A DNA stretch of 64,000 nucleotides from positions 92,804-156,803 of the forward strand of contig JBMONI010000002.1 of assembly GCA_049324575.1 (NCBI GenBank). The letters run 5' to 3'. Shown here piece after piece: positions 6,685-57,199 of the stretch (the first letter of the stretch is position 1; the number at the start of each line of letters is the position of its first letter). A program made the position numbers and the translations under genes. The notes beneath the pieces were generated by a model, which was given only the letters and a program-made list of their open reading frames with translations, searched no databases and was not told the origin of the DNA. The DNA is from Candidatus Omnitrophota bacterium. Lineage in GTDB: Bacteria > Omnitrophota > Omnitrophia > Omnitrophales > Aquincolibacteriaceae.

Positions 6685-7145
6685 ACCTTGTGTAAGAATT
6701 CCCGCGTTACCGATTAAGGTAAAGTTATTCTATTGTCTTACGCTTAACTTTTAAAAAATCTCAGGAAAGACAAAGATGCAAGAAATTTAACCGTCATGAA
6801 TGGCTTTGTCAAGTATAAGCCATACAATTTGTTACGAAAAATCCACCCCTGCCGATTTAGCACTCTTTTTCAGTATAAATCCGGATCGTTTTTTCCCATT
6901 TTCAAGTCACCGGCTAGCCCTTGGTAAAATAGGCCCTAATTCATGCTTGTTCCGATCAAAAACTAGCATTCTTGCCTCTTCCGTACATTTTCTTCGCGTA
7001 AAAAACTCGAAGATCCTCTCACAGACCCAATATCCTAACAGCGAATAGCGGCTTTCCCCGGCTCCGTGACATTTTCCGGAAGTTTAGGTAGAATACCGCT
7101 TCCGTTTTTTTACCGTATCTTTTCACCCAGAAAAGGAGTTTTGCC

Positions 7146-29659: not shown

Positions 29660-32600
29660 TTAGGGTGATATGTTCGAAATCCAGGATGCCTTACCCTCTT
29701 TCATTTCAAAACGCCATTTCCAAATGAAATAAATGACGGGGTAGACAAGCAATTCAAGTATAAACGAAGTGGCAAGCCCTCCGATCATCGGCGCCGCGAT
29801 ACGCTTCATGGCATCGGAACCTGCACCCGTTGCCCACATGATCGGCAAAAGCCCCATGAAGGTCGCCATCACGGTCATCATTTTGGGACGGACACGTTTG
29901 ACGGCGCCGTGCATGATCGCTTCTTCCAGGTCTCTTTGGGTGCGCATCTTTTTATTCCGGACCGCATCGTCATAGGCCAGATCGAGAAAAAGCAGCATAA
30001 AAACCCCTGTTTCTGCGTCAAGACCCATCAAAGCGATCATCCCCACCCAGACCGCGATCGAAATATGATAATCCAGAAGCCAGAGGAACCAGACCGCCCC
30101 GACCAGGGAAAAGGGAACCGCTAAGAGAACAATGCCTGTTTTAACCGCGGATTTAGTGTTGATATAAAGTAAGAGACAGATAAGAAAAAGCGTCAAAGGA
30201 ACCACGATCTTTAATCGTTCTTTCACGCGGATCATGTTTTCATATTGCCCGCTCCAGATCAGGGAATAACCTTGCGGAAGTTTGAGTTCGCGCGTTACGA
30301 TCTTTTTGGCTTCCGCGACATAGCTGCCGATATCCCGGCCGGCCATATCGACGTAAACATAACCCGCCAAGAGCCCGTTCTCATTGCGAATCATCGCAGG
30401 GCCGGGGACTTTTTTGATCTCCGCAAGCTGCGCGATCGGGATTTGTCTTTCCATCGGGCCTTTCACCGCAGAGCCCGTCCCCTCTGCTCGTGTAGGAACA
30501 AGAACGCGTTTGAGCTTTTCAAGGTCATCGCGGAATTCCCTCGAATACCTGACATTGACGGGATAGCGTTCACGCCCTTCTACCGTCGTCGTAATGTTTT
30601 CTCCGCCAATCGCAGACGTGATCACGCTTTGAACATCCTCCACCGAAAGTCCATAGCGCGCCATCGCTTCGCGATTGAGTTCAAAATCGAGAAAATACCC
30701 TCCCGCCACCCGTTCCGCATAGATGCTCCGGGTCCCGGGAATATCCTTCAGGATCATTTCTAAATGTGTCCCGATCTCTTCGATCTTTTTGATGTCCGCG
30801 CCCAAGACCTTGATCCCGATGGGGGTACGCACCCCGGTCGAAAGCATATCGATCCGGTTTTTGATCGGAAGAGTCCAAGCGTTGGTGGTTCCGGGGATCT
30901 GCAAAGCCTGATCCAATTTTTGCACCAGCTCCTCCCGAGAGAGATGCTGTGGCCAAATACGCTCGAGCGGCCACTGGAACATTTCCGGGACCCAGCGAGA
31001 ATACCACCGTTCCTTTTTTGTCCACTCCCTTTCCGGTTTCAGGAGAATAACGGTTTCTATCATGGAAAAAGGCGCCGGATCCGTGGAACTCTCCATCCGT
31101 CCGGCTTTCCCGAACACCCGTTCGACCTCCGGAAAAGCTTTGAGGATCTTATCCTGCTTTTGAAGAAGCCGCTGGGCCTCCGTCACCGAAATCCCGGGCA
31201 AAGTGGTCGGCATATAAAGAAGGTTCTCTTCCCATAGAGGCGGCATAAACTCGGAACCAAGCTTGAAATAGACAGGGATCGTACTCAACACAAGAAGCAG
31301 CGCTGCGAGGATCGTGGTCTTCCGGTGCTTCAGAACCCAACGGCAAACCGGCTCATAAATTCCGAACAGGACCCGACTAACCGGGTGTTTTTCTTCCGGA
31401 TAGTAAGTTCCGACCGCAATCCCTGTAACCGCTTTGGAAAGACCGGTTTCGATCTTTTTGGGAAAAAAAGGCAACTTCAGCCGGATCGGATCCATCCGGG
31501 CAAAAAGCATCCGCATCGCGGGATCCAGCGTCACCGCTAAAAGCGCCGCCATGACCATGGCCAGATTCTTTGCCCAGGCCAGCGGCCGGAATAAACGGCC
31601 CTCCTGGTCCATCAGCGTGAACACCGGCAAGAACGAAACCGCAATGACCAAGAGTGAAAAGAAAACCGCGGGTCCGACCTCTTTCAGCGCTTGAAGACGG
31701 ATCGCGTGGAAATCCCCCTGGCGCCCCCCTGCGATCCATTGCTCAAGGCGTTTGTAGGCATTTTCCACCTCTACGATAGCTCCATCCACCAAGACCCCGA
31801 TCGAGATCGCAATGCCGGAAAGTGACATGATATTCGAAGTGAGCTCCATCCGGTGAAGAAGAATAAAGGAGAGCAGGACCGAAATGGGGATCGTCACGAT
31901 CGGGACAATGGCGGAGGGGAAATGCCAGAGAAAAAGGAGAATCACAAAACTGACAATGATCATTTCTTCGATCAACTGATGTTTTAGCGTATCGATGGCA
32001 TGCAGGATCAGCTCTGAACGGTCATACGTCACAACCAATTCCACGCCGGCCGGAAACGAAGGTTTTAGCTCCTCGATCCTCGCTTTAACCCGCCGGATGA
32101 CATTTAAAGCATTTTCGCCCGAACGCATCACCACCGTGCCGGAAACCACATCGCCCTCACCATCCAGGTCCGCAAGCCCGCGGCGGATGTCGGGACCGAT
32201 CGCCACGGTGCCCAGATGCTTGATCAAGACCGGGGTTCCCTTCGGATCCGTCGTTACGACAATATTCTCAAGGTCCTGGACTGATCTTGCATAACCCCGC
32301 CCGCGGACCATATATTCTGCACCGCTGAATTCTAAAAGCCGGCCTCCGGTCTCCTGATTGCCGCTGCGGACCGCCGCTAAAACTTGGGTGATCGGGATGT
32401 CATAGGCCAGAAGCTTATTCGGATCGAGCGTGATCTGATATTGTTTGACAAAACCGCCGAGGGAAGCCACTTCCGCAACGCCGGGAACGCTTTGCAGGTA
32501 ATAACGGAGATACCAATCCTGGAAGCTTCTCAATTCCTGGAGACTGTGCTTGCCGGTCTTATCGACCAGGACATACTGGAAGACCCAGCCGACCCCGGTC

Positions 32601-33022
32601 GCATCCGGTCCAAGCTCGGTCTGCACTCCTTGTGGAAGCCGGGGAATGATCTTACTCAGATATTCGAGTGTCCGGCTTCTCGCCCAATAAAGGTCCGTTC
32701 CGTCCTTGAAGATCACATAGACATAGGAAAAGCCAAAATCCGAGAATCCGCGGACCGCTTTGACATGGGGCGCGCCGAGCATCGCGGTAACGATCGGATA
32801 AGTGACTTGGTCTTCAATGAGGTCAGGGCTGCGGTCCCACTTGGAGTAAATGATGACTTGGGTATCCGAAAGATCAGGAATCGCATCCAGCGGGATGTTC
32901 TGGATCGACCATACCGAAGCCACGACAGCGACCGCCGTGAGAACAAAAACAAGAAGCTTATTATGGGCCGAAAATTCGATGATCCGTTCAACCCAACCGC
33001 CCTGCCTCAATGGCGCGTCCAT
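29660..33022 (-). CDS. cusA: CusA/CzcA-family heavy-metal efflux RND transporter
   Basis: 1,120-aa 12-TM RND permease. Confidence 0.9.
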   Translation of the reverse strand: MDAPLRQGGWVERIIEFSAHNKLLVFVLTAVAVVASVWSIQNIPLDAIPDLSDTQVIIYSKWDRSPDLIEDQVTYPIVTAMLGAPHVKAVRGFSDFGFSYVYVIFKDGTDLYWARSRTLEYLSKIIPRLPQGVQTELGPDATGVGWVFQYVLVDKTGKHSLQELRSFQDWYLRYYLQSVPGVAEVASLGGFVKQYQITLDPNKLLAYDIPITQVLAAVRSGNQETGGRLLEFSGAEYMVRGRGYARSVQDLENIVVTTDPKGTPVLIKHLGTVAIGPDIRRGLADLDGEGDVVSGTVVMRSGENALNVIRRVKARIEELKPSFPAGVELVVTYDRSELILHAIDTLKHQLIEEMIIVSFVILLFLWHFPSAIVPIVTIPISVLLSFILLHRMELTSNIMSLSGIAISIGVLVDGAIVEVENAYKRLEQWIAGGRQGDFHAIRLQALKEVGPAVFFSLLVIAVSFLPVFTLMDQEGRLFRPLAWAKNLAMVMAALLAVTLDPAMRMLFARMDPIRLKLPFFPKKIETGLSKAVTGIAVGTYYPEEKHPVSRVLFGIYEPVCRWVLKHRKTTILAALLLVLSTIPVYFKLGSEFMPPLWEENLLYMPTTLPGISVTEAQRLLQKQDKILKAFPEVERVFGKAGRMESSTDPAPFSMIETVILLKPEREWTKKERWYSRWVPEMFQWPLERIWPQHLSREELVQKLDQALQIPGTTNAWTLPIKNRIDMLSTGVRTPIGIKVLGADIKKIEEIGTHLEMILKDIPGTRSIYAERVAGGYFLDFELNREAMARYGLSVEDVQSVITSAIGGENITTTVEGRERYPVNVRYSREFRDDLEKLKRVLVPTRAEGTGSAVKGPMERQIPIAQLAEIKKVPGPAMIRNENGLLAGYVYVDMAGRDIGSYVAEAKKIVTRELKLPQGYSLIWSGQYENMIRVKERLKIVVPLTLFLICLLLYINTKSAVKTGIVLLAVPFSLVGAVWFLWLLDYHISIAVWVGMIALMGLDAETGVFMLLFLDLAYDDAVRNKKMRTQRDLEEAIMHGAVKRVRPKMMTVMATFMGLLPIMWATGAGSDAMKRIAAPMIGGLATSFILELLVYPVIYFIWKWRFEMKEGKASWISNISP

Positions 33023-33028
33023 TCTTTC

Positions 33029-34315
33029 TCATCCTCCGTGCGCATGGCTGCTTGTGCCGCCCGCGTCTTCAAGCGCGGCTTTGAGCCGGCTTTCGGAATC
33101 GATCAGAAAATTACCGCTTGTAACAACGATCTCGCCTTCCTGAAGTCCACCCTGGATCTGATAAAAACCATCGGTTTTCGTTCCCAAGGCAACGGCGCGA
33201 GGTTCAAAAAGAGAACTTTCTTTCGCGACAAAAACAATGTTTTTTTCGCCGGTCATGAACACGGCCTCTTCGGGCACCGCCAAATGTTCGCCAAGGTCGA
33301 TCCTGAGCGAAACATTCACATACATCTCCGGCTTCAGCTCCCCCGCCGGGTTTTCGAGCTGGGCCCGCACCCGGATCGAGCGCGTCACGGGATCTACCAC
33401 GGGATCCAGCGAACGGATCGTCCCTTGAAATATCTTTTGAGAAATAGCAGGCACCTCCACTTCGACCGGGTCTCCGGCATGAACAAAAGGCATCTCATAT
33501 TCATAGATGGCCGCATAAAGCCAGACCTTGCCCCCCGCGTCGGAGTAAAGGAGCGAACGATCCGGCTTACCGGCCTCTTCGAGCTCCTGCACAAGGGCAT
33601 CGTTCAAACCCAGCAAGCGCAGTTTGATCCGGGCCGAATCCACAAGCTTTTCGGCTTGCTCTCGCATCTCAGGATCGGCGTTTTCCGCTCTTTGCAGAGC
33701 CCGGACCGCTTGCAAATATTCCTCTTCAGCCTGATAGAGTTCGGGATCGTAAGCGATCCTCCCGGAAACACGAAGGGTCTTTTCAAGCCTCTGTTCCTGT
33801 ACCGGGGCCATTTTGACACCGATGGCCTGCTGTTTTTCCGTCCCCAACCGGATCTTCGTATAACCCTCGGGGAAAGCATCTTGTACGATAACTCCCAGAT
33901 CTTCCATGCAATGAGGGCATTTGCCCATTCTCGCAAACTCCGGGGTCATGGCGATCATGCACTGCCCCATCTTGCATTTATGGAGAAGGCAGATCTCCCC
34001 CGGCTTCATGGCGACAAGCTGTTCGACCGTAAAGACCTTCGGCGATGTCTCCGGCGAACTTTCATGGCCGTTATGCCCTTCAGACGCTATCGACTCATCA
34101 GCAGAAGCTTCGCGTTTTACCAGCGACATGTTACAGATCGGGCATGTGCCCGGACGGTTCGAAGTATAATTGGGATGCATGGGGCAATAATAGAGTTCTT
34201 TGGAAGCTTGCATATCGGCCGGTGCTGCGGAGTGAAAGCGGACCCCCCAAAGAGTTCCCGCCGCAACGATCGCTGCGACCGCCAAGACCCATAATGCGCG
34301 GTTCATTTTGATCAT
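33029..34315 (-). CDS. cusB: CusB-like RND periplasmic adaptor with two N-terminal Cys/Met metal-binding motifs
   Basis: YYCPMHPNYTSNRPGTCPICNMSL and CLLHKCKMGQCM...CPHCMEDL N-terminal metal sites; MFP body. Confidence 0.85.
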   Translation of the reverse strand: MIKMNRALWVLAVAAIVAAGTLWGVRFHSAAPADMQASKELYYCPMHPNYTSNRPGTCPICNMSLVKREASADESIASEGHNGHESSPETSPKVFTVEQLVAMKPGEICLLHKCKMGQCMIAMTPEFARMGKCPHCMEDLGVIVQDAFPEGYTKIRLGTEKQQAIGVKMAPVQEQRLEKTLRVSGRIAYDPELYQAEEEYLQAVRALQRAENADPEMREQAEKLVDSARIKLRLLGLNDALVQELEEAGKPDRSLLYSDAGGKVWLYAAIYEYEMPFVHAGDPVEVEVPAISQKIFQGTIRSLDPVVDPVTRSIRVRAQLENPAGELKPEMYVNVSLRIDLGEHLAVPEEAVFMTGEKNIVFVAKESSLFEPRAVALGTKTDGFYQIQGGLQEGEIVVTSGNFLIDSESRLKAALEDAGGTSSHAHGG

Positions 34316-35643
34316 GGGAGCTTCTCCTTTTCCGCGTTTTTCAGATCAAGCCCGGCGGCCCAGGCAAGATCGGTGTATGCCTGCAAAGCCGTCGTATAAA
34401 AACGGATCTGAGAAAGTTTCGCATTAAGATAAATGCGTTCGCTATCGAGCAGATCCAAAAAATCGGTTTTCCCGGATTCATAGCCAGCTTGATCCGCAGA
34501 AAGCGCTAATTGAGCCTGCGGAACGATCGCAACGTCATAAAGATCCGCGATCTTGGAGGCGCTTTGAAAGCGGGAATACGAATCTTTGACCTCGAAGAAA
34601 GCTTGATTTTTCACAGCCAAAAGCTTGGCGCGTTCGGCCTCCTCCAATTTGGCGGCTTTCTGGATCTCCGGGATGATCCGGTTCTGCCAGATCGGAAGAT
34701 TCACTTTCAGCGGGAACATCCAGCTGTCCCGTCCGTCCATATCGGAGGGTTCCATCGTCGTCCCGGCGCCGACCCGTACATACTCAAACCCGACATTCAC
34801 ATCGGGGACATAGGCCAATTGCGCAAGACGTTTGGAATAATGAGCTTTGGAAACCATGGCTTCCGCTTCTTGGATCGCCGGCCGGTGAAGGACCGCAAGG
34901 TTCACGAGCTCTACCAGGGAATTCCCCAAAACCGGTTTGGGCGGAAGCGTTGCCTTCCCGAACGGCTGCATCGGGTCCCGGTCAAGGAGCGCATTGATCT
35001 GGGCCGTAACACTTTCCCTTTCTTGCTCCAGCCTATAAAGTTTTTCGAGGCTCATCGAAAATTCCGTCTGGGCCTTCGCGACATCGCGCTGAGATCCTTC
35101 CCGGCTTGAATAGCGGGCCTGCGCAGCCGCCTCGAATTTTTTAAGAAGTTCTTTGATTTCAGCAAGCGTATCCAGAGAGGCATCAATAAAATAAAGCTCA
35201 TAATAAAGTTTGCTGAGTTTGGCCGTAATGTCACGTTCGAACGCTTGGTAGCGGGCCCAAGCCGCCCTGGCCTCGGCTTTGGCTTCGTTCCTTTGCTCCC
35301 AGAGCTTAAGCGGAAAGGGAATGTCCTGAGCCACCATAAAACGGTTTTTCTGAGGCCCGACACGGGTCTCGGTCATTGAGCCCATAATGTCGTAGCCCCC
35401 TATTGGATCTGGAAGGGCCCACGAGGCCAGGATCTCCTTCTGAAAAGCCTCCCATCCAGCTTTCGCCGCAATAAGCTCTGGATTCCGTTGAAGGGCTTCT
35501 TGGAGGAGGACTTCCAGATCGAGGGAAGAAGAAGACAGAACCACCGCTCCTGTCTCCTCCCCCCTGCAAACAGGGGAAAGAAGGGAGAGGACCGTCAAAA
35601 TACTGAGCAGAACCCTGAGATGCTTTCCGCTAGAACCGCTCAT
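34312..35643 (-). CDS. cusC: TolC-family outer-membrane efflux protein
   Basis: Start trimmed to ATG 35643 (MSGSSGKHLRVLLSILTVLSLLSPVCRG signal); 4-nt overlap with cusB. Confidence 0.8.
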   Translation of the reverse strand: MSGSSGKHLRVLLSILTVLSLLSPVCRGEETGAVVLSSSSLDLEVLLQEALQRNPELIAAKAGWEAFQKEILASWALPDPIGGYDIMGSMTETRVGPQKNRFMVAQDIPFPLKLWEQRNEAKAEARAAWARYQAFERDITAKLSKLYYELYFIDASLDTLAEIKELLKKFEAAAQARYSSREGSQRDVAKAQTEFSMSLEKLYRLEQERESVTAQINALLDRDPMQPFGKATLPPKPVLGNSLVELVNLAVLHRPAIQEAEAMVSKAHYSKRLAQLAYVPDVNVGFEYVRVGAGTTMEPSDMDGRDSWMFPLKVNLPIWQNRIIPEIQKAAKLEEAERAKLLAVKNQAFFEVKDSYSRFQSASKIADLYDVAIVPQAQLALSADQAGYESGKTDFLDLLDSERIYLNAKLSQIRFYTTALQAYTDLAWAAGLDLKNAEKEKLP

Positions 35644-35699
35644 CCAAGCCGTCCTTTCCAGACCGGTAATTCCGGTCGCCATCGGCCGCTCTTCCGATC

Positions 35700-35978
35700 T
35701 TATTTTCTCAGGCTCTCGAAAAGACGGTAGATCTCGTTCAAGTGCTCCGTCTTCTTCGCCTGAGACCGCCCTTCGAACGCCTGCTTGGCGCAAGCGTTCA
35801 AATGATCCTTGAGGATCTTTGCTTCAACGGTTTTAAGCGCGCCGCGAATAGCCGCGATCGCGTTCAAGATATCGACGCAATACCGTCTCGTTTCGATCAT
35901 CCTCTGGATGCCGCGCACCTGTCCGGCAATCCGGCGAAGGGCGACCAACTGATCGTCATGTGGGGTTCCTTTCTTCAT
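35700..35978 (-). CDS. csoR: CsoR/RcnR-family metal-sensing transcriptional repressor
   Basis: MKKGTPHDDQLVALRRIAGQVRGIQRMIETRRYCVDILNAIAAIRGAL... with the C-H-C copper-ligand pattern; start at ATG 35978. Confidence 0.85.
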   Translation of the reverse strand: MKKGTPHDDQLVALRRIAGQVRGIQRMIETRRYCVDILNAIAAIRGALKTVEAKILKDHLNACAKQAFEGRSQAKKTEHLNEIYRLFESLRK

Positions 35979-36007
35979 GGTCTTTTCCTCCTGGCAGAAC
36001 AAATATA

Positions 36008-36028
36008 ACATACCCCATGGGGGTATGT
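36008..36028. promoter_or_regulatory. CsoR-type operator: perfect palindrome ACATACCCC-atg-GGGGTATGT immediately upstream of csoR
   Basis: Read directly; matches the GC-rich ATACCC...GGGTAT CsoR box known from copZA operators. Confidence 0.7.
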
Positions 36029-36050
36029 CAAGAAAAACCTCGGGCGAACT

Positions 36051-36374
36051 TCAGGCTTCGAGAAGGCTAAAGACCTGCCGGTAATAGTCTGCCAGATTAC
36101 GCAAGGACCGCATAAAAAGGAGGGAAAGCGCCCAGGTCACGGCGAGGATGAGGAGCGTCCAAAGCCATTTCATAGGACGGGAATATTTCGGGTGGAACCA
36201 GAGGAGCGGAAGCATCAGGGGCCCGACCATGAAAAAGCCGATCACGAGAGTGGAAAGTTTGAAATACCAGGGAGCGCCGACAGAGGTCTTTCGCCCTTCC
36301 AGGAATTCACCGCAATGCTTGCATTTGATGGCTTCGTCCTGGATCTCTTCCGCGCAAAACGGACATTTTTTCAT
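36051..36374 (-). CDS. Zinc-ribbon (CPFC...CKHC) two-TM membrane protein, hypothetical
   Basis: MKKCPFCAEEIQDEAIKCKHCGEF... followed by two hydrophobic helices. Confidence 0.5.
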   Translation of the reverse strand: MKKCPFCAEEIQDEAIKCKHCGEFLEGRKTSVGAPWYFKLSTLVIGFFMVGPLMLPLLWFHPKYSRPMKWLWTLLILAVTWALSLLFMRSLRNLADYYRQVFSLLEA

Positions 36375-36423
36375 TCCAAGCTCCCGGCATGGCCCGCCCG
36401 GTCCCGCTTATCCGAAAGACCGC

Positions 36424-37065
36424 TTAACTGACACGGATAAAAGCGGAAGCGTCGGTCTTGCAGATCGCACAGGTCCCCGAAGAGGCCGCTTCCTTGATAT
36501 TCCCGCAGACGGGGCACACGAAAAAATTCTTGGTCCCCTTTTTCCAGGCTTCCTCATGATCAAGGATCTTGCGGCAAAGGTCCGCATGAACGTTCTCGGC
36601 CTGCATCGCGTCCTTGAAAGAATCGACAGCCTCTTCGGCCCCCGCCGCCTCGGCGGTCTCGAGGAAATCCGGATACATGGCCGTGGCTCCGTCCATGCGC
36701 TCGTTGAGCATCGTTTCGAGGTTGTCGCGGGTACTCTCGACCTTCGCCGGATCGATCACCGCCGCCGGCTCGCCGCCGAGCTGGCGGATCACTTCCGCGT
36801 GCCGTTCAAAATGGACCTGGGCCGCACGCGCGATTGCGCGGAAAAAGCCCGCGACCGCTCCAAAGCCTTCCTGGTCAGCCTTCCCGGCGAACGCCATCGC
36901 GTTCACATGGGCATTGCTCTCCGCGCGGAAAGCGGTCATGAGAAGCTCAAGCGGGCCGTTCTCCTGGTTCGTTTCCGCGGCCACGCTCATGCCCGACAAG
37001 GTTATCCCCATCAAACCTGCCAGCAAGAATGCCCCCAGTCGCTTGCGCGCTCGGACCCTGTTCAC
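36424..37065 (-). CDS. Rubrerythrin with apparent N-terminal signal peptide and C-terminal rubredoxin-like CPVCG...CAICK
   Basis: Ferritin-like E...E..H motifs (AFRAESNAHVNAMAFAGKADQEGF...HFERHAE); GTG start 37065 has a good RBS (GGGAAGGA-8nt) and overlaps the stop of the upstream giant gene (GTGA). Confidence 0.75.
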   Translation of the reverse strand: MNRVRARKRLGAFLLAGLMGITLSGMSVAAETNQENGPLELLMTAFRAESNAHVNAMAFAGKADQEGFGAVAGFFRAIARAAQVHFERHAEVIRQLGGEPAAVIDPAKVESTRDNLETMLNERMDGATAMYPDFLETAEAAGAEEAVDSFKDAMQAENVHADLCRKILDHEEAWKKGTKNFFVCPVCGNIKEAASSGTCAICKTDASAFIRVS

Positions 37066-40000
37066 GCTTTTTTTCCTTCCCGCAAAGAGACCTCAGCACC
37101 GATCGGGCTCTTGCTCACATCCCGGCGGACCCGGCCCACCTTCAAACGGCCGCGAGGCTCTCCGAGATCCTTGGGAAGGACCAGCTGATTCCCCGCCAGG
37201 GAAGCCCCGACCACGCCTTCGATCGCCTGACGAAGCATCCATCCCGCCGCCCCGGTATAACCGTGCCATATCATGCGGCCCTGGTCGTAATTGGTCAAAA
37301 GGTCTGCCGCCTGTTTGTTCGGCTGGCCCCCGTAGATCTCGATCTCTCCGGCCGTCACATGCGGAATGGAGGAAATTTTCAACCATAGCCGAAGCGCGGT
37401 TTCGCGATAGGAAGCCGCTTTGGAAGCATTCCCCCGCGAGGCATAATGTTCGGCCAGGACCCTGGCGGCTTTCACAAGCCATTGGACCCCGTGACAGTAC
37501 ATGCCGTTCTCGCGGACCCCTTCCGGATATTTACTGCTTCGGCCCAGATAAGGCTTAGTATCCTCGCGAAGCGACGGCCATCCGAGCAGGATGGCGTTCG
37601 GTTTTTCAAGGACCTGAAGCGCCGTATTGAAAACGATCTCATTGCGCTCGGGATTGATCCCCGCCATGACCGCCCACGCCGCGGTCAGGGCGTCAATCTC
37701 CCAGATCCCGCTCCCCTTGATACCGATCTCGGTGCCGTCATCATGGATCGCCCGAAGATACCGGTCGGTCCGCCATGTTCTTTCGAGCGCTTCGGCAAGC
37801 GCCTTCATCTTTTTCTCGTAGTGCTCCCGCCGGGCGAGCCCGTCCCGCTTCTCGATGATCCCAAGCATTTCCTTGAGGATATAGTAAAGGAAGAAACCGA
37901 GCCAAATACTTTCCCCCTTCCCCGCGCTCCCGATCTCATCCAGCCCGTCGTTCCAGTCCCCGGTCCCGATCAGCGGGATGCCGTTACGCCCCATCCTTTT
38001 TTCGAGTACGACGTCGATCGATTTCATGCAATGGCGATAGACCGTATCGGCCCGCGTGGAGCGCTGGTAAAAATGTCCCCAGCCATGTTTGTTCTTCGGC
38101 AGAGGCGCGAACGGGAATTCCGAGGTCACATAAGAGGTCATTTCGTCGAGAATCGTTTCATCCCCGGCAAGGCGAAGATATTCCGCCACTCCCCAGGAGA
38201 GCCACAGCAGATTGTCCGAGGCATGGGAACGGCAGGAAAAAGAAGTGCGTCCGTCGGTCAGCGTGAAGAACCAGTGGAAGACATCCCCTTCCACGAATTG
38301 ATGCGAGGCATGGAGCAGGATCTGTTTACGAGCCAGCGCCGGATCGACCCAGATCATATTGACGGTATCCTGAAGCTGGTCCCGGAAACCGAACGCGCCG
38401 CTGGTCTGATAAAAGCCCCGGCGCGCCCAGATCCGTTCCGCAAGGGCCTGATATTTGAGCCAGTATTGGTATGCATCGAACTCCGGAAGGTCGGTCTTGA
38501 TCTCAAGGGTGTTCATGAGCCGGAGCCACCAGTCGCGCGTTTCTTCCAGGCTCTTTCGGGCGGTATCGAGATTTTTGTATTTCTGGACGATCCGGATCGC
38601 CTCCGGATGCGTGTCGGTCTGTCCCAAGACGATCGCAATGGTTTTCTCGCCCCTGGCCGGGATCTCCACCGTCCCAAGGAATCCCGCGACCGGCTTGTCA
38701 TCGGTCCGATGCCCGAGGTCCGGCTCCCCGGTTTCCACCAAAAAGGGGTGCGTCACCCCGCGGCCCCGGCCGAAAAAGGCCCCGCGTTTCGTGACCCAGC
38801 GGTCGGCCGGAATCGACATGGACGCAAAAGCCCACCCGGTGCGGAAAAGATTGCGTGGATTCTCGAAAAGAAGCGCATCGAGGACCTTGTCATGTTTTTG
38901 GCACAAAGCTCCGGCCCGCTCAGGCTGGAACGCGAGCGCGATCTGAAAATAAGGCGCGATCCGCATCCGCTTGAGCCTGTCGGAATCGTTCTTCACGGTG
39001 AGAAGATAAACCCCGGTCGGCTCGTCCGGAGGGACAAAAACGGTCAACTGGGTCGAGACCGAGCCGGAACTCATCCGGAACACCGCGGTCCCGTCCACGC
39101 TGAATTCGGATTCATAGCGCGCCCGCAGATCATTCAAGGGATGATAGGTCGGTGAGAACCATTCTTTTTGATCCGGATCGTACAGATAGATCGCTTCCGC
39201 CGGGACTTCTTTCGTCACCGTATCGGGCCAATCCGGCGTCACGCGGTTCTGCTGAGAATTGCCGTTGCAGGAAGTATGCAGGCCCCGGTTCGTGACCATG
39301 ACCGAATGCACGGCATTGGAAAGTGCGTGATCATAAGGACGGGTCGTGAACGGGGTCCGGACGATAAGCTTCCGCCCTTCGGCCGTATATTCCGAATAAG
39401 GCTGCGGGGTCCCGGGCAGGATCTCGCCGTGGCCGATCAAAGGCTGTCTTTTCTTACCGGGGACCGCGGGGGACGCGGCGGCCTTCGGGGCCAGATGCTT
39501 CTCGATCATCTCGAGCGCCGCCTTCTTGTTCTTCGCCCAGCCGATCATCAGCCGCATCGATTTTGGGGCCGCGGGCGCAAGCGCCATGTCCACCACAAGA
39601 CAACCGATCGGATCGAAGGTCGGATAAGGCGCCATGTCTCGCGCTTCAAGAAAACCCATGGTCTCAAGGATCCGGGGTGTCCAAAGACTCCGGGCGCGGC
39701 CGATAAAATCCATGCGGGAGGTATGGAACCCCTCGGGCGCCGCCTCCGAAGCCAGGATCCCCATGGACTTCGTGTTCTTCTGCCAGGAAAGCACGGCATT
39801 GGCCTCGCTCACATATTCCATTTCCGGATAAAGCCGAGCATACTGCGTATGGAAGCGATCATCCAGAGGCCGGTTCAACACCCACTCCAGATACGGGACG
39901 ATCTTGAGCGCGCGGGGCTTCGAACTCAAGTTCTCGAGCAAAATCGTCCACACCTCCGCCGTCCCGTTATGCGGAACGAGCCCGATCTCGATCGTGGCCC

Positions 40001-43000
40001 GCACCCCGTGATTCTCGTTCACAAGCTTCAGGCGATTTCCGTCCTTGGAGATCCTGGACGCCGGGAACCGGTCGCGCGGAAAATTCCCGAAGATTGGCCA
40101 GGCGCGCGCCGCGCTCCCCGGTTTTTCCGCCATATCCACCACAAAAAGCGCGCGGCCGCAGGGCTCGAGATTATCGTAGCAGCGGCGGCTCACATCATAG
40201 CTTTTTTGCACCACTTCGCTGTACCCTTCGCCGCCCTCGAGGACCACCGTCTTGTATTCATGATGTCCGATCTCGAAACTTTTCTCGCGGCGGCTTTCCC
40301 CGCGGCGGACCATCGCGCGGAAACAAAAGGAAATGAGCGTCGCCAACAAGACCGCCCCGAGACCGACCCCCAAGAGCTGAAGGACCGGAAGCGCCCGCAG
40401 GGACGCGACAAGTCCCGCGCCCTTTGCGTTCTGGATCGCAAGCGAGGTCCCCCACGCATAATCCCATTCCGCGCCGCGCGGGATATAAAAGGGAATGAGA
40501 AGCGGCGCCCATGTGGTGAACCGCTTGACCCCTTCGGGAATGCACCGTTGCGCAGCGGCCGGACCGATGAACTTCGCGGTCTTCTCGTCCAGCTTATCCA
40601 TGCCGATAAAGCTCAGGTTCACGAGCGTCGCGACCCGCAGCCCCATGTGGTCCATCCAGATCAGGACACGAAAGAAATCAAAGGCCAGCACGTAGACGAA
40701 AACCGTAAGGCTCCAGTCCCGGAAAGCCTCCGGAGACAGGGTCAGCTTATTCCAGATCGCGACCAAGGTGCGGATCGCGCCATCCTGGTTATACCAGGTC
40801 GGATCGGGCATCATGCGCAGGAACGTAAAAATAATAGGCGACATCCAGAGTCCCCAACGGAGGACGTAAAGCATGTGCTGGATGAGCTCCATGAAACCGG
40901 CTTTCGAGAAAAAGAATTTGATCGGCGCGGTATCCTTCTGGAAGAACGCCTCCATGAAGACCTTATTGACAGCGAAAAGCCAGGCCGCGATCGACCAGTT
41001 AATGACCCCCGCCAGGGATTCGGTGAAAAGGAGCTTGGCCCCGCCGGAGTAACTGCCGAGGTCGATCCGCCCCCATTTGTTGACCAACGGATAGGTGATG
41101 TAGTCGACCGGAGTAAATCCGGCGCTCGTATAAAGTTTGAATTTTTCGATAACCACGGGGACCTGAAGCGAATCCAAATAGAAAGCGACCGCGCTTCCGA
41201 CGAAAGCGCCCAGGGCCGCGTCCACCAGATAAAGCCGCCACGACTGGATATTCCCCTGGCCTTTGAACGTATAGAGGGCGTCCCGCAGCAAACTGACCCC
41301 CAGCGAGGCCGCCAGACCGACCATGCAGCCGAAATGGATCCGGCTCGGCATCGCTTCCTGGAAAAGCCCGCGGCTGATCATGAAAGCCAGTCCAAAGCCG
41401 ACCACCGCTCCGCGCACGTACAGGATCGGATTCCGGTAACTGTAATGAGCCCGCTCAAAAAAAGGAAGACTGCCGTCGAACGATTCGATGATGGTCTTGA
41501 TGAGCGGGAAAACAAGCGCTCCCGCCATAAGCCCCACGACCAGAGGGAAAGAAGCCATGATCGAGCTCACCGCCGAATGGTTGAGCGCCAGATACAAAAG
41601 ATAAAGGATCGCAAGCAGGATCCCGCTATAGGCCATCCCCTTGCGCATGCCGGTATAGGAATGCTGGGAAACCGTTTCCGAACTCGGAGCTTTCCGGTGC
41701 ACCCCGTCCACAATAGCGCCCGTGATCAGATAAACTTCGCCCCAAAGCCCCGCATAAGAAAGGATCGTCGCAAGGATCGACACCATGCCGCGAAAGAGCG
41801 CCGGCAAAGCGCCGACCCAGGCGGTGGAACCCCAATCCGCGATCTCAGGCGCGAGCGCCACGGCGACCGAAACAAAAAGCATGGAAAGATGCGCTTTGCG
41901 GACGTTCAGGACCTTCCCCTGGGTCGCGAGACTGATCCCGCTGATCACGACTTCGTTAAAAGCAAAAACGATCACGGCACGGCCCAAGATCCCCAAAACG
42001 ACCGGCCACGCCGCAAGTACGCTCAGCGTCAAGGCGCCGGCCAGGTCCTGCAAAAGCGCCGCGTTCTCGAGAAGAAGGATCCAGCCTAAAAGATAAGGAG
42101 TAAGCACGATCAGTCCGCCCGCGATCGGCCGCAGGTGCTTTCCGGAGTTGGCCATCGACAGGACGTTCACGGACTGGTAGATCACAAAGGTCAGCGCTGC
42201 GAGATGGTTCGTTAAAAGGAAGAGCTGCGACCATGTCGCCGGGGCCTGAAGGATCTCCTGCCGGCTCGAACCCGCGGCCAAAAGTCCCGTCAAAAGGATG
42301 TCCTGGAAAAGCTCGGACGGGGTCAGCGTTTTCCCGGCAAGCACCCGCTTGCAAACGGCAGAAAGCGCGGCTCCGAGCAAGGCGATCCCGAGGAAATGAA
42401 AATTGGTATCGAGCGTGCTCCCCTTGCCGAGCCCGCAGATCATGAAACCGATCGCAAGGATCGTGACCGCAACGGCCCCGTAAAAAAGATCCTTTTTGAG
42501 ATGCCAGAGCCAGGACCTCGGAAACGCCGAAAGGTCCTCGGCCGGGACCGCAGAAGGAGCAGCGGACATCCGCCGGCCCCGGAAGATCCGCTTTAAGAAC
42601 GCGGCGACGCCCGCCATCAGGAGGCTCAGCAGGATGACGAGAGAGACCTTGATCAGCGTAAAATTCTTCTCGAGCGGCGTCAAACGTCCGAAGCGGAGAT
42701 CGAAGAAAAGTTTTCCCGTGACGGCTTCGCTGATCTCAAGCGGGCTCACGCCGATCGGATTGATGGCCATCGGTCCTATCGCCATCGGACTGACGACATA
42801 AACGACCTCCGTCAGGTTCCCGATCGTATTCCAGTTCACCGCCTCAAGGAAATAATTCCATCCGGGCTGCAGCCGTAGCGGAATGCTCTGCATCCCGCGG
42901 GTCCCCTTGATCTCGGCTTTGACGGTCACCTGCTGGATCTGATCCCCATGGGGGACCTTGACGCCGATCTTTACGGCGTCCGCGACCTCGGCCCCGTAAT

Positions 43001-44330
43001 CCTCGGGATACGATTTAGTCCAGATCCCCACCGTCGATCCTTCGGGCAGCGTGTAACTGAACTCCCAAAGGTCCCTTTTCAAGCTTTCATCGAAAACGCC
43101 GGTCACACTCCCCTGCGAAGGCCCGATGTTGAAAACCCCTTTTTCCCCCGCATCGAGCATCCCGAAAACGGCCGTGAAGAGGTCCGGAGCGGAAGTTTTC
43201 GGAACCGGGCTTGCCCTTTTGACGAAATCAAAAGCCAAATAAAGGGTGCCATGGGCCTTTTCGATCCCCTCCCGCGCCGTAATGCGAAGCCGGAGTTCTT
43301 TGAGGTCCCCGAGAGAAGCTCCGTCCAGGAATTCCTGGATCGAATTCCATCCCCGTTTGAGTTCAAGCGGAAAGTTTTTTTCGCTTCGGGTCCCTTTCAA
43401 AAGGACTTCCGCAGTGATCTGTTCGACCTGTCCCGCTTCCGGCACCCGGATCCCCATCCGGAGGGTGTCCATCGCTCCGGACTCGATCCCCGCCGGGAAA
43501 TCCTTGGCCCTCATTTCCACTGAGCCCTCATCCTCGATCGAGTAATCGAACTCCAGAACGTCTTTTCCCGCAACCTCATCGAAGGAAGGCGTAAGCGTCC
43601 CCTTGGCATCCCCGTCCTTTTCGACCTCGCGCTTACCTGCGCTCATCAGCGTCATGGACGACACCCCCGCGGCCGCAGGAGTCGGTTTCGGAGGCGGCGG
43701 TGCAGCAACCCGAGGAGAACTGACCGTGGTTTTGACGGACGGGGTCTGCGGAGGTAACATCGAGATGAATTCCGCGGTAAAAGCAACGGATCCTTCGGCG
43801 CTCATTCCTTGAGCGGCCGGTGAAACGGAAAATTCGACTGCTTCCAGCGTCCCCACCTTCGCCCAATCCAAGGATTCCTGGAAAGCGCTCCATCCCTCAC
43901 GAAGCCGCACGGGGATCTGCTGGGTCCCGGCCGATCCCTTGATCTCCAAGGTTAGGGAGATCTGCTTTGCGGTCTCGGCACTTGCCGCTTTGGCCCCGAT
44001 CCTTACCGCAGAAACGGCCGCAGCGCTCAGGAAGGCGGGGAACGATCTCGCCCAAAAAACCACTTTCGCTCCCGCCGGAATGGAGTAATCGAGCTCGAGA
44101 ACGTCTTTGCCGCTCGCGCTGTCATAAGTCGGCGTCGAAACCGCCTTCAGCACCCCATCCTTCGTGAGGCCACGCTCCTTGGCGTCCAAAAGCGTCGCGA
44201 TCGGGGCTGAGGCATCGGTTTCGGCGGCGCTCGAGACCCCGGAAGGAAAACAAGCATTTAAGAAAAAAACGGAAAGGGAAAAGAGGAGCGATCTTGAGAA
44301 CAAAAAAGCCTGCTGTCTTCTCGAGAACAT
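37062..44330 (-). CDS. Giant 2,422-aa membrane protein: signal peptide, three tandem roughly 170-aa repeats (exported), roughly 20-helix membrane domain, C-terminal GH94-like glycoside phosphorylase / cyclic-glucan-synthase-C-terminal-like domain
   Basis: Three repeat motifs DVLELDYSIPAGAKVVFWARSFPA / DVLEFDYSIEDEGSVEMRAKDFPA / DLWEFSYTLPEGSTVGIWTKSYPE; long hydrophobic block; C-terminal motifs QTSGAFGFRDQLQDT and IGTGDWNDGLDEIG typical of GH94. Confidence 0.75.
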   Translation of the reverse strand: MFSRRQQAFLFSRSLLFSLSVFFLNACFPSGVSSAAETDASAPIATLLDAKERGLTKDGVLKAVSTPTYDSASGKDVLELDYSIPAGAKVVFWARSFPAFLSAAAVSAVRIGAKAASAETAKQISLTLEIKGSAGTQQIPVRLREGWSAFQESLDWAKVGTLEAVEFSVSPAAQGMSAEGSVAFTAEFISMLPPQTPSVKTTVSSPRVAAPPPPKPTPAAAGVSSMTLMSAGKREVEKDGDAKGTLTPSFDEVAGKDVLEFDYSIEDEGSVEMRAKDFPAGIESGAMDTLRMGIRVPEAGQVEQITAEVLLKGTRSEKNFPLELKRGWNSIQEFLDGASLGDLKELRLRITAREGIEKAHGTLYLAFDFVKRASPVPKTSAPDLFTAVFGMLDAGEKGVFNIGPSQGSVTGVFDESLKRDLWEFSYTLPEGSTVGIWTKSYPEDYGAEVADAVKIGVKVPHGDQIQQVTVKAEIKGTRGMQSIPLRLQPGWNYFLEAVNWNTIGNLTEVVYVVSPMAIGPMAINPIGVSPLEISEAVTGKLFFDLRFGRLTPLEKNFTLIKVSLVILLSLLMAGVAAFLKRIFRGRRMSAAPSAVPAEDLSAFPRSWLWHLKKDLFYGAVAVTILAIGFMICGLGKGSTLDTNFHFLGIALLGAALSAVCKRVLAGKTLTPSELFQDILLTGLLAAGSSRQEILQAPATWSQLFLLTNHLAALTFVIYQSVNVLSMANSGKHLRPIAGGLIVLTPYLLGWILLLENAALLQDLAGALTLSVLAAWPVVLGILGRAVIVFAFNEVVISGISLATQGKVLNVRKAHLSMLFVSVAVALAPEIADWGSTAWVGALPALFRGMVSILATILSYAGLWGEVYLITGAIVDGVHRKAPSSETVSQHSYTGMRKGMAYSGILLAILYLLYLALNHSAVSSIMASFPLVVGLMAGALVFPLIKTIIESFDGSLPFFERAHYSYRNPILYVRGAVVGFGLAFMISRGLFQEAMPSRIHFGCMVGLAASLGVSLLRDALYTFKGQGNIQSWRLYLVDAALGAFVGSAVAFYLDSLQVPVVIEKFKLYTSAGFTPVDYITYPLVNKWGRIDLGSYSGGAKLLFTESLAGVINWSIAAWLFAVNKVFMEAFFQKDTAPIKFFFSKAGFMELIQHMLYVLRWGLWMSPIIFTFLRMMPDPTWYNQDGAIRTLVAIWNKLTLSPEAFRDWSLTVFVYVLAFDFFRVLIWMDHMGLRVATLVNLSFIGMDKLDEKTAKFIGPAAAQRCIPEGVKRFTTWAPLLIPFYIPRGAEWDYAWGTSLAIQNAKGAGLVASLRALPVLQLLGVGLGAVLLATLISFCFRAMVRRGESRREKSFEIGHHEYKTVVLEGGEGYSEVVQKSYDVSRRCYDNLEPCGRALFVVDMAEKPGSAARAWPIFGNFPRDRFPASRISKDGNRLKLVNENHGVRATIEIGLVPHNGTAEVWTILLENLSSKPRALKIVPYLEWVLNRPLDDRFHTQYARLYPEMEYVSEANAVLSWQKNTKSMGILASEAAPEGFHTSRMDFIGRARSLWTPRILETMGFLEARDMAPYPTFDPIGCLVVDMALAPAAPKSMRLMIGWAKNKKAALEMIEKHLAPKAAASPAVPGKKRQPLIGHGEILPGTPQPYSEYTAEGRKLIVRTPFTTRPYDHALSNAVHSVMVTNRGLHTSCNGNSQQNRVTPDWPDTVTKEVPAEAIYLYDPDQKEWFSPTYHPLNDLRARYESEFSVDGTAVFRMSSGSVSTQLTVFVPPDEPTGVYLLTVKNDSDRLKRMRIAPYFQIALAFQPERAGALCQKHDKVLDALLFENPRNLFRTGWAFASMSIPADRWVTKRGAFFGRGRGVTHPFLVETGEPDLGHRTDDKPVAGFLGTVEIPARGEKTIAIVLGQTDTHPEAIRIVQKYKNLDTARKSLEETRDWWLRLMNTLEIKTDLPEFDAYQYWLKYQALAERIWARRGFYQTSGAFGFRDQLQDTVNMIWVDPALARKQILLHASHQFVEGDVFHWFFTLTDGRTSFSCRSHASDNLLWLSWGVAEYLRLAGDETILDEMTSYVTSEFPFAPLPKNKHGWGHFYQRSTRADTVYRHCMKSIDVVLEKRMGRNGIPLIGTGDWNDGLDEIGSAGKGESIWLGFFLYYILKEMLGIIEKRDGLARREHYEKKMKALAEALERTWRTDRYLRAIHDDGTEIGIKGSGIWEIDALTAAWAVMAGINPERNEIVFNTALQVLEKPNAILLGWPSLREDTKPYLGRSSKYPEGVRENGMYCHGVQWLVKAARVLAEHYASRGNASKAASYRETALRLWLKISSIPHVTAGEIEIYGGQPNKQAADLLTNYDQGRMIWHGYTGAAGWMLRQAIEGVVGASLAGNQLVLPKDLGEPRGRLKVGRVRRDVSKSPIGAEVSLREGKKA

Positions 44331-44453: not shown

Positions 44454-44482
44454 ATTATAATCAGAATCGGCTTTTTGCCAAA
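44454..44482 (-). promoter_or_regulatory. Candidate sigma-70 promoter TTGGCA-16-TATAAT for the 2,422-aa gene
   Basis: Minus-strand ...cTTGGCAaaaagccgattctgatTATAATacg..., about 120 nt upstream of the ATG. Confidence 0.4.
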
Positions 44483-56385: not shown

Positions 56386-56387
56386 GG

Positions 56388-57197: not shown

Positions 57198-57199
57198 GC

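What the first reader, a model, noticed from the sequence alone, without database searches (positions are those of the whole stretch)
37062..44330. 2,422-aa membrane protein coupling three exported tandem repeats, a roughly 20-helix membrane domain and a GH94-like phosphorylase domain
GH94 motifs (GAFGFRDQLQD, GDWNDGLD) sit in the C-terminal roughly 1,000 aa, but unlike cyclic beta-1,2-glucan synthase (Cgs/NdvB) I see no GT84-like glycosyltransferase segment. Instead there is a very large polytopic membrane block and an N-terminal exported triple repeat (CBM-like?). It sits between glgX/pyk and a coupled rubrerythrin. It could be an undescribed membrane-integrated glucan synthase or exporter.
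Basis: partly seen in the sequence, partly recalled or inferred. Interest (0 to 1): 0.75.

Follow-up and report, generated by a model that had tools for sequence, protein, structure and literature searches.

The report
Membrane-embedded beta-1,2-glucan phosphorylase, unknown 19-helix module

Summary
ORF 37062-44330 (-) encodes 2,422 aa with these parts:
- a signal-like N-terminus;
- three real tandem repeats (30-36% identity, E 1e-26 to 1e-33) with a CBM-type beta-sandwich fold;
- a roughly 19-helix membrane block;

There is no GT84 domain, no cyclase domain and no Rossmann-fold-like (RFL) insert, so it is not a Cgs, although databases label relatives that way.

The window's neighbours (glgX, pyk, rubrerythrin) are not conserved. 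In 19 of 82 related loci the neighbours are exported PF10091 (beta-1,2-glucanase-type) enzymes. About 11 loci also carry a sugar ABC importer, a ROK protein and a two-component system.

Best reading: a transmembrane glucan conduit coupled to phosphorolysis, most likely uptake. A glucose-1-phosphate-driven synthase/exporter remains a serious rival. No description of this architecture was found in the literature searched.

The parts
37062..44330 (-). Whole ORF, 2,422 aa: signal-like N-terminus, 3 CBM-like repeats, 19-TM block, GH94 region.
   Evidence: An identical protein, P0001, is in NCBI (Candidatus Omnitrophota MAG).
44454..44481 (-). Sigma-70-like promoter, TTGGCA-16 nt-TATAAT (11 of 12 matches), about 120 nt upstream of the ATG. 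An AAGGA ribosome-binding-like site precedes the ATG.
   Evidence: This is a consensus match only.
44223..44330 (-). Residues 1-36: signal-peptide-like N-terminus (RR, a hydrophobic core, LNAC/SSA).
   Evidence: Sequence and hydropathy. Export is inferred. One-repeat homologues also begin with signal-like sequences.
43746..44210 (-). Repeat 1 (res 41-195), CBM-like.
   Evidence: 33% identical to repeat 2, 36% to repeat 3.
43206..43664 (-). Repeat 2 (res 223-375), CBM-like, after a Pro-rich linker.
42675..43184 (-). Repeat 3 (res 383-552), CBM-type beta-sandwich. This is the repeat that aligns with the single repeat of the one-repeat homologues checked.
40299..42662 (-). Membrane block (res 557-1344): about 19 TM helices and one beta-hairpin (1070-1096). 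No known family or fold.
40452..41072 (-). Hyper-conserved core of the membrane block (res 1087-1293). Motifs: LRWGLWM, TWYNQDG, IWMDHMGLRVATLVN, RFTTWAPLLIPFYIPRG. Mostly on the predicted periplasmic half.
   Evidence: Most of the 92 near-invariant membrane residues in a 29-sequence cross-phylum alignment lie here. Topology.
39411..40277 (-). First GH94 supersandwich region (res ~1352-1640), equivalent to Cgs GP1. The RFL insert of Cgs is absent after it.
   Evidence: Query 1452-1590 aligns to Cgs (8rf9) 1635-1779. Pfam reports two supersandwich stretches. Cgs domain map from PMC10901819.
38622..39329 (-). Second GH94 supersandwich domain (res 1668-1903), equivalent to Cgs GP2.
   Evidence: PF06165, E 9e-62.
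37206..38531 (-). GH94 catalytic domain (res 1934-2375). Includes D1984 (codon 38379-38381) and D2128 (codon 37947-37949).
   Evidence: PF17167, E 1e-60.: these align with Cgs D2393 and D2528, the residues mutated to inactivate the Cgs phosphorylase. Near-invariant (at most one exception) in 29 sequences. Coordinates checked.
36424..37065 (-). Downstream rubrerythrin-like ORF whose start overlaps the stop codon. Probably the same transcript, but not a conserved partner.
   Evidence: No counterpart in 82 related loci.

Best explanation
SHOWN.
- The gene encodes a single inner-membrane protein.
- Its C-terminal ~1,080 aa form a complete GH94 phosphorylase of the Cgs clade: two supersandwich domains and a catalytic domain, with both Cgs active-site aspartates conserved.
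- Its N-terminal part consists of three CBM-type beta-sandwich repeats behind a signal-like sequence.
- The two parts are joined by a ~790-aa membrane module of about 19 helices. The module has no detectable relative in Pfam or the PDB, evolves as slowly as the enzyme domain, and every full-length relative examined also carries GH94.
- It is not a cyclic glucan synthase: it lacks the GT84 polymerase, the cyclase and the RFL insert.

INFERRED.
- Substrate: beta-1,2-glucan. The closest relative of the GH94 part is the Cgs phosphorylase, and the recurrent neighbours are exported PF10091 enzymes of the beta-1,2-glucanase/transglycosylase clan.
- Topology: repeats in the periplasm, phosphorylase in the cytoplasm.
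- Mechanism: a glucan chain spans the membrane module with its non-reducing end in the cytoplasmic GH94 pocket.

MOST LIKELY DIRECTION (least certain step): inward. The periplasmic repeats capture linear beta-1,2-glucan, which neighbouring exported endo-enzymes may produce from cyclic or long glucans. The membrane module threads the chain in. The GH94 domain removes glucose units one at a time with phosphate as glucose-1-phosphate. Uptake is thereby pulled forward, and one ATP per glucose is saved for a fermentative cell.
For: GH94 region:
- Pfam domains are present.
- The best PDB relative is Cgs (8rf9/8rf0, 337 bits), against about 110 bits for cellobiose phosphorylases and 15 bits for the soluble 1,2-beta-oligoglucan phosphorylase 5h3z.
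- D1984 and D2128 correspond to Cgs D2393 and D2528. Both are near-invariant (at most one exception) in a 29-sequence cross-phylum alignment.

Repeats:
- They are true repeats.
- The fold is CBM-like.
- A profile comparison gives a borderline match (58.8% probability, E 9e-5) to the CBM11-like domain of neighbouring exported PF10091 enzymes.

Topology:
- Alternate counting gives 19 TM helices, with K/R-rich loops on the inside.
- The repeat-less subfamily lacks exactly the signal sequence, the repeats and TM1, and starts at the TM2 equivalent.

Coupling of membrane block and enzyme:
- The HMM search found 558 cluster representatives.
- Of seven representatives scanned against Pfam, two are full-length and carry both GH94 domains, three end in a partial GH94 supersandwich and two show no Pfam domain; all 155 full-length homologues listed by the two homologue searches carry both GH94 Pfam domains.
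- Identity to the proteobacterial forms is the same in the membrane part (34-39%) and the GH94 part (about 35%).

Catabolic context:
- 19 of 82 related loci have exported PF10091 neighbours.
- About 11 loci share a co-directional operon: SBP_bac_1, response regulator, histidine kinase, CBM11-like protein, CBM+PF10091, TPR protein, this gene, CBM+PF10091, two MalFG-type permeases, a membrane-anchored ~250-aa protein of unknown function, ROK, M48 peptidase.
- In most of these operons, no other cytoplasmic glycan-cleaving enzyme was found within the fetched flanks.
Against: - The operon's own ABC importer could deliver oligosaccharides to the cytoplasm, which would make a second import route look redundant.
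- To my knowledge there is no precedent for polysaccharide import through a polytopic channel fused to an enzyme.
- In Alphaproteobacteria, in a Planctomycetota-like contig and in this window the gene stands alone, without catabolic partners. That suits a self-sufficient synthase equally well.
- The architecture (periplasmic carbohydrate-binding domains, a TM anchor, a channel, a cytoplasmic enzyme acting on the non-reducing end) also mirrors BcsB/BcsA-type exporters. A periplasmic TPR protein sits next to it in about 11 loci.
- No atomic coordinates were available, so a continuous conduit was not verified.
- Linkage specificity was not tested.
- The structure model rests on only 35 sequences.
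Confidence: 0.45

Rival explanations
1. Nucleotide-sugar-independent glucan synthase/exporter. The GH94 domain runs in reverse: it adds glucose from glucose-1-phosphate to the non-reducing end of a beta-1,2 chain. The membrane module extrudes the chain reducing end first. The periplasmic CBM-like repeats guide it, as BcsB does for BcsA. Exported PF10091 enzymes trim or cyclise it, as OpgG/OpgD do for OpgH. This is essentially the first reader's idea.
For: - GH94 reactions are reversible; the Listeria 1,2-beta-oligoglucan phosphorylase makes beta-1,2 chains from glucose-1-phosphate in vitro (abstract of PMC3960220).
- The closest relative is a domain of a synthase.
- The gene stands alone in Alphaproteobacteria and elsewhere, as cgs and opgH often do.
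- Exported glucanase-type neighbours and a periplasmic TPR protein are also typical of periplasmic-glucan and exopolysaccharide systems.
- The window carries glycogen and trehalose genes that could supply glucose-1-phosphate.
Against: - From general knowledge, not tested here: cytoplasmic phosphate normally favours phosphorolysis, and phosphorylases are rarely biosynthetic in vivo.
- A primer would be needed.
- The conserved operon contains an SBP-dependent importer and a ROK protein, which point to sugar uptake.
- The window's glycogen-gene adjacency is not conserved.
Confidence: 0.3
2. Cgs-like logic with a new polymerase. The unknown membrane block is itself an unrecognised glycosyltransferase that makes the glucan. 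The GH94 domain only trims chain length, as in Cgs.
For: - In Cgs the GH94 domain is a length controller and scaffold, not the polymerase (PMC10901819).
- The membrane block has long runs of invariant D, H, R, N and W residues that look catalytic.
- One alphaproteobacterial locus has a GtrA-like gene next door.
Against: - The block is almost entirely helical and has no GT-A or GT-B domain.
- No similarity was found to GT-C enzymes, BcsA, Cgs or any other PDB fold.
- Its most conserved motifs lie on the predicted periplasmic side, opposite the cytoplasmic GH94 domain.
Confidence: 0.1
3. Anchor or sensor only. The membrane block and repeats merely tether a cytoplasmic oligoglucan phosphorylase near the ABC importer, or sense periplasmic glucan. 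No chain crosses through the protein.
For: The operon's ABC importer would suffice for uptake, and a two-component system lies nearby.
Against: - A tether does not need about 19 helices with 92 near-invariant residues across phyla, or conservation equal to that of the enzyme.
- Full-length relatives always carry both parts, including where no importer is nearby.
Confidence: 0.1
4. Assembly or gene-calling artefact that joins unrelated genes.
For: None, beyond the unusual length and the MAG origin.
Against: - The reading frame is uninterrupted.
- An identical protein lies on a 175-kb contig.
- The same fusion occurs in hundreds of proteins from many phyla, including complete genomes.
Confidence: 0.01

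Closest known systems
[quoted passage not shown]
   Same: - Giant inner-membrane protein with a cytoplasmic C-terminal GH94 phosphorylase.
- The GH94 parts are each other's closest solved relatives (E ~1e-98; GP1, GP2 and GP3 all align).
- Both active-site aspartates are conserved.
   Different: - No GT84 polymerase, no PF10091/GH189 cyclase domain, no N-terminal domain and no RFL insert.
- About 19 TM helices of unknown fold instead of 6.
- Exported CBM-like repeats are added.
- PF10091 proteins, where present, are separate and exported.
1,2-beta-oligoglucan phosphorylase (SOGP; Lin1839, LpSOGP, PDB 5h3z)
   Same: [quoted passage not shown] - Sits in loci with an ABC sugar importer (PMC3960220). 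The operon in about 11 relatives is comparable.
   Different: - SOGP is soluble.
- Sequence similarity is marginal (E 0.033).
- SOGP has no membrane module and no exported repeats.
OpgH/OpgG system for osmoregulated periplasmic glucans
   Same: A membrane protein handles a beta-1,2 chain across the inner membrane, and periplasmic beta-1,2-glucanase-type partners are encoded nearby (background from PMC11842490, and the abstract of 10.1101/2023.03.29.533101).
   Different: - OpgH is a GT2 enzyme that uses UDP-glucose.
- No GT2 domain or fold is present here.
- The partners here are PF10091-type, not OpgG-type.
Cellulose synthase BcsA-BcsB
   Same: By analogy only: periplasmic carbohydrate-binding domains on a TM anchor, a polytopic channel, and a cytoplasmic enzyme acting at the non-reducing end.
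   Different: No sequence or fold similarity to BcsA or any other PDB chain. The enzyme here is a phosphorylase, not a GT2.
CBM11-type and related beta-sandwich carbohydrate-binding modules
   Different: The repeats have no Pfam CBM hit. Sequence identity to the structural matches is about 10%. Ligand binding is untested.

Membership tests
GH94 glycoside phosphorylases | N-terminal beta-supersandwich domain (PF06165) | tested here: met
   E 9e-62, two stretches.
GH94 glycoside phosphorylases | (alpha/alpha)6 catalytic domain (PF17167) | tested here: met
   E 1e-60, residues 1934-2375, full profile length.
GH94 glycoside phosphorylases | Catalytic acid Asp in the GDWNDG motif, and the Asp of the RDQLQD motif | tested here: met
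   D2128 and D1984 align with Cgs D2528 and D2393. Both are near-invariant (at most one exception) in the family.
GH94 glycoside phosphorylases | Phosphate-dependent cleavage of a beta-glucosidic bond | not testable with these tools
   Needs an enzyme assay. The conserved RENG-x-Y-x-H and YTGAAGW motifs are consistent with activity; their role in phosphate binding is from memory.
[quoted passage not shown] | GT84 (modified GT2) polymerase domain | tested here: not met
   No GT Pfam hit at E <= 1. The region before GH94 is helical membrane. The phmmer alignment to Cgs covers only the GH94 part.
[quoted passage not shown] | Central cyclase domain (PF10091, GH189/GH144-like) | tested here: not met
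   Absent here and in all ~35 close homologues. Every true Cgs hit in the same search carries PF10091.
[quoted passage not shown] | RFL subdomain inserted between GP1 and GP2 | tested here: not met
   About 60 residues separate the two aligned blocks here, against about 257 in Cgs.
[quoted passage not shown] | C-terminal GH94 phosphorylase domain | tested here: met
1,2-beta-oligoglucan phosphorylase (SOGP) | Sequence membership in the SOGP clade of GH94; a soluble enzyme | tested here: not met
   5h3z matches at only E 0.033 (15 bits), against 337 bits for Cgs. The protein is membrane-integrated.
1,2-beta-oligoglucan phosphorylase (SOGP) | Specificity for beta-1,2-linked glucose chains | not testable with these tools
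   Inferred only, from the Cgs relationship and PF10091 neighbours.
Membrane-embedded GT2 synthases (BcsA, OpgH, chitin or hyaluronan synthase) | Cytoplasmic GT-A domain with D, D, D and QxxRW motifs packed under a TM channel | tested here: not met
GT-C glycosyltransferases, MOP/Wzx flippases, and secondary transporter folds | Characteristic polytopic fold | tested here: not met
CBM11-like carbohydrate-binding modules | Beta-sandwich (jelly-roll) fold | tested here: met
CBM11-like carbohydrate-binding modules | Sequence membership and glycan binding | tested here: inconclusive
   No Pfam CBM hit. hhalign gives 58.8% probability, E 9e-5, to the neighbours' CBM11-like domain. Binding is untested.

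The most novel reading that the evidence does not exclude
The family is a new class of polysaccharide-translocating machine. A glycoside phosphorylase, rather than a nucleotide-sugar glycosyltransferase or an ATPase, is mechanically coupled to a previously unseen 18-19-helix glucan conduit.

Because the GH94 reaction is reversible, the protein could act in either direction. With a high glucose-1-phosphate to phosphate ratio it would build and export periplasmic beta-1,2-glucan without UDP-glucose. With a low ratio it would reel the glucan back in as glucose-1-phosphate.
Probability: 0.3. Interest if true: 0.9.

Novelty: new variant of a known kind. Interest (0 to 1): 0.72.

Why it matters
1. 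Annotation. [quoted passage not shown] The protein lacks the polymerase and the cyclase, so metabolic inferences drawn from those labels are wrong.

2. A new membrane module. The ~790-aa block is conserved across phyla and is present in 559 of 185,579 species genomes. It has no family, no fold relative and no literature that I could find. Its aromatic and polar invariant motifs suggest it handles sugar chains.

3. A new principle, if translocation is coupled to phosphorolysis. This would be either energy-saving import of a polymer or synthesis without nucleotide sugars.

4. Ecology. It points to a beta-1,2-glucan economy in uncultivated Omnitrophota, Elusimicrobiota and Planctomycetota, possibly scavenging the periplasmic glucans of other bacteria.

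5. Testability. The repeat-less form is present in cultured Alphaproteobacteria, so experiments are feasible.

Tried and rejected
- Pfam and NCBIfam on the whole protein, on the N-terminal and membrane parts alone, and on 13 family members. Nothing consistent was found outside GH94.
- A profile of the membrane block against all PDB sequences at E <= 10 gave zero hits.
- The afdb50 fold library was unavailable.
- hhalign of sub-segments of the membrane block found no internal duplication.
- An HMM built from the repeats and searched against the neighbour proteins gave no convincing hits. Only the profile-profile comparison gave a borderline link.
- I looked in the 64-kb window for PF10091, SBP, permease and ROK homologues of the conserved operon. 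None is present.
- I considered glgX, pyk and rubrerythrin as functional partners and rejected them: none is conserved in 82 related loci. An RND pump also lies beside one Omnitrophota relative, but this is not general.
- I looked at neighbourhoods of the proteobacterial and a Planctomycetota-like member for a Cgt-type exporter, OpgH, a GH3 enzyme or glycogen genes. None was found.
- Literature searches for this architecture found nothing.
- The look-up of the Lichenibacterium gene context failed because the protein is not on record.


Full report
OBSERVATION

Both quoted motifs are present: GAFGFRDQLQD at residue 1978 and GDWNDGLD at 2124. An identical protein is in NCBI on a 175-kb contig of a Candidatus Omnitrophota metagenome-assembled genome, named 'GH36-type glycosyl hydrolase domain-containing protein'. 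A near-consensus sigma-70-type site (TTGGCA-16-TATAAT, 44481-44454) lies about 120 nt upstream. The next good terminator-like hairpin is at 36030-36006, after the rubrerythrin and a small zinc-ribbon/DUF983 gene.

C-TERMINAL REGION

Pfam finds only two families: GH94_b-supersand (two stretches) and Glyco_hydro_94. [quoted passage not shown] Cellobiose phosphorylases score about 110 bits. The soluble 1,2-beta-oligoglucan phosphorylase 5h3z scores 15 bits.

The alignment covers Cgs subdomain GP1 (query 1452-1590 to Cgs 1635-1779) and GP2-GP3 (query 1650-2391 to Cgs 2036-2764). The Rossmann-fold-like (RFL) insert that Cgs carries between them (residues 1847-2012 in PMC10901819) is missing.

The two aspartates mutated to inactivate the Cgs phosphorylase are D2393 and D2528 (PMC10901819). 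They correspond to D1984 and D2128 here. Both are near-invariant (at most one exception) in a 29-sequence alignment that spans phyla. The phosphorylase therefore looks catalytically competent. Activity and linkage specificity remain untested.

WHAT IS ABSENT

No glycosyltransferase family is found even at E <= 1. No PF10091 cyclase domain is present. In the same homologue search, every true Cgs carries PF10091, and none of the ~35 close homologues of this protein does. [quoted passage not shown]

N-TERMINAL REPEATS

Residues 41-195, 223-375 and 383-552 are pairwise 30-36% identical (E 1e-26 to 1e-33) and are separated by proline-rich linkers. They follow a signal-peptide-like N-terminus.

Repeat number varies from 1 to 5 among the closest relatives. 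A large subfamily has none.

MEMBRANE BLOCK

Residues 557-1344 were modelled at pLDDT 79.6 and pTM 0.76. The model has about 20 helices plus one beta-hairpin at 1070-1096. Alternate counting of helices, checked against the positive-inside rule, gives 19 transmembrane helices, with the N-terminus outside and the C-terminus inside.

Independent support comes from the repeat-less subfamily. It lacks exactly the signal sequence, the repeats and TM1, and it begins at the equivalent of TM2.

The block has no detectable relative:
- No Pfam or NCBIfam match.
- No consistent Pfam match in 13 members.
- No PDB sequence match to its profile at E <= 10.
- No Foldseek match below E 0.1.
- No internal duplication.

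Yet it is as constrained as the enzyme. Against proteobacterial members it is 34-39% identical, and the GH94 region is about 35% identical. Ninety-two residues are near-invariant, mostly between 1087 and 1293. These include the runs LRWGLWM, TWYNQDG, IWMDHMGLRVATLVN and RFTTWAPLLIPFYIPRG. They lie mainly on the predicted periplasmic half. The aromatic and polar character of these motifs is what one expects of a sugar-contacting surface. That is an inference.

DISTRIBUTION

- A profile of the membrane block finds 558 cluster representatives among 1.84 billion proteins, 254 of them below E 1e-30.
- Seven representatives were scanned against Pfam. The two full-length ones carry both GH94 domains, three end in a partial GH94 supersandwich, and two (730 and 1,236 aa) show no Pfam domain at all.
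- All 155 full-length homologues listed by the two homologue searches carry both GH94 Pfam domains in the precomputed annotation.
- In species-representative genomes, 559 of 185,579 encode a relative. The closest 80 come from Omnitrophota, Elusimicrobiota and Planctomycetota-labelled bins, plus Auribacterota, Sumerlaeota, Chlamydiota, FCPU426 and Deltaproteobacteria.
- The repeat-less ~1,830-aa form occurs in cultured Alphaproteobacteria (Lichenifustis flavocetrariae, Lichenibacterium ramalinae, complete genome CP036515.1). It also occurs in Roseiarcus, Burkholderiales and Myxococcota bins.

GENOMIC CONTEXT

The window's neighbours are a GlgX-like gene, pyruvate kinase, a solute symporter, the rubrerythrin, and a Cus-like RND pump. 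None has a counterpart near the gene in 82 related loci, so they say nothing about function.

Other neighbours do recur. Nineteen loci carry one to three PF10091 proteins, almost all with signal or lipoprotein-like N-termini. PF10091 is the domain of the Cgs cyclase, as shown by the Cgs hits. It belongs to the beta-1,2-glucanase clan (PMC12102758).

About eleven loci share a co-directional operon:
1. a sugar-type solute-binding protein
2. a response regulator
3. a histidine kinase
4. a secreted CBM11-like protein
5. a CBM+PF10091 protein
6. a periplasmic TPR protein
7. this gene
8. a second CBM+PF10091 protein
9. two MalFG-type permeases
10. a membrane-anchored ~250-aa protein of unknown function
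11. a ROK protein
12. an M48 peptidase

The CBM11-like domain of these neighbours gives a borderline profile match to the repeats of this protein (58.8% probability, E 9e-5). In Alphaproteobacteria and in a Planctomycetota-like contig the gene stands alone.

INTERPRETATION

Three things are firm: the anatomy, the GH94/Cgs-clade identity of the enzyme, and the failure of Cgs membership.

The beta-1,2-glucan substrate is a reasonable inference from two independent lines. One is the closest relative. The other is the recurrent PF10091 partners.

The membrane block and the enzyme occur together in every full-length member examined, they evolve at the same rate, and the exported repeats sit on the far side of the membrane. 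Together this argues that the protein handles a chain that crosses the membrane.

The direction is open. I favour uptake coupled to phosphorolysis (about 0.45), for three reasons:
- The conserved operon contains an importer and a ROK protein.
- In most of those operons, no other cytoplasmic glycan-cleaving enzyme was found within the fetched flanks.
- Phosphorolysis is the usual physiological direction.

A glucose-1-phosphate-driven synthase/exporter (about 0.3) fits the stand-alone genes, the BcsB/BcsA-like layout and the OpgH/OpgG analogy. Less likely readings are that the membrane block is a new polymerase (about 0.1) or only an anchor or sensor (about 0.1).

NOVELTY

The enzyme domain is a known kind. 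The fusion and the membrane module are undescribed in the literature I could search. I rate it a new variant of a known kind. There is roughly a 30% chance that it represents a new principle of polysaccharide translocation.

LIMITS

- No atomic coordinates were returned, so no pore could be traced.
- The AlphaFold database fold library was not available.
- The structure model rests on a shallow alignment.
- Export of the N-terminus and the membrane topology are predictions.
- Only the best 80 genome loci and the best 150 profile hits could be inspected.

Noticed in passing
window 36424-37065 (-): The rubrerythrin/ferritin-like ORF has about 39 residues before the Pfam domain. These include a hydrophobic, signal-like stretch (RKRLGAFLLAGLMGITLSGMSVA). 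Its GTG start overlaps the stop codon of the large gene (GTGA). The true start, and whether the protein is exported, are unclear.
   Followed up: partly
window 29660-35793 (-): A three-gene RND efflux system: outer-membrane factor, a membrane-fusion protein with a heavy-metal-binding domain (CusB-like), and an AcrB/CusA-like pump. An RND system also lies next to a homologue of the large gene in locus L001, but not in other loci.
   Followed up: partly
window 54745-59431 (-): An alpha-amylase-family gene with a maltogenic-amylase C-domain (54745-56385) and a 743-aa GT20 (trehalose-6-phosphate-synthase-type) protein with a ~270-aa N-terminal extension (57200-59431). Together with glgX, these make this part of the window rich in alpha-glucan and trehalose genes.
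   Followed up: no
window 5368-6717 (+) and 16022-17773 (-): Two sizeable ORFs (449 and 583 aa) have no Pfam match at E <= 1e-4.
   Followed up: no
L066 2909-5281 (+) and L018 5-2377 (+): In two Omnitrophota loci, including the complete chromosome CP070780.1, a soluble 790-aa GH94 protein (cellobiose-phosphorylase-sized) lies in the same operon as the large membrane GH94 gene.
   Followed up: partly
L036, L037, L019, L025, L066 (about 4-22 kb in each locus): A conserved co-directional operon of about 12 genes surrounds the large gene. It contains three different exported proteins with CBM11-like domains, two of them fused to PF10091, and a single-pass membrane protein of ~250 aa of unknown function. 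It looks like an undescribed beta-1,2-glucan locus of Omnitrophota.
   Followed up: partly
L087 7474-7878 (-): In Lichenifustis flavocetrariae a GtrA-family small membrane protein is encoded divergently, right next to the repeat-less homologue. This is a single case.
   Followed up: no
window 36001-44000: G+C is about 0.58-0.59 across the large gene, against about 0.50-0.55 in the flanking 28-36 kb. The shift is mild and was not analysed further.
   Followed up: no
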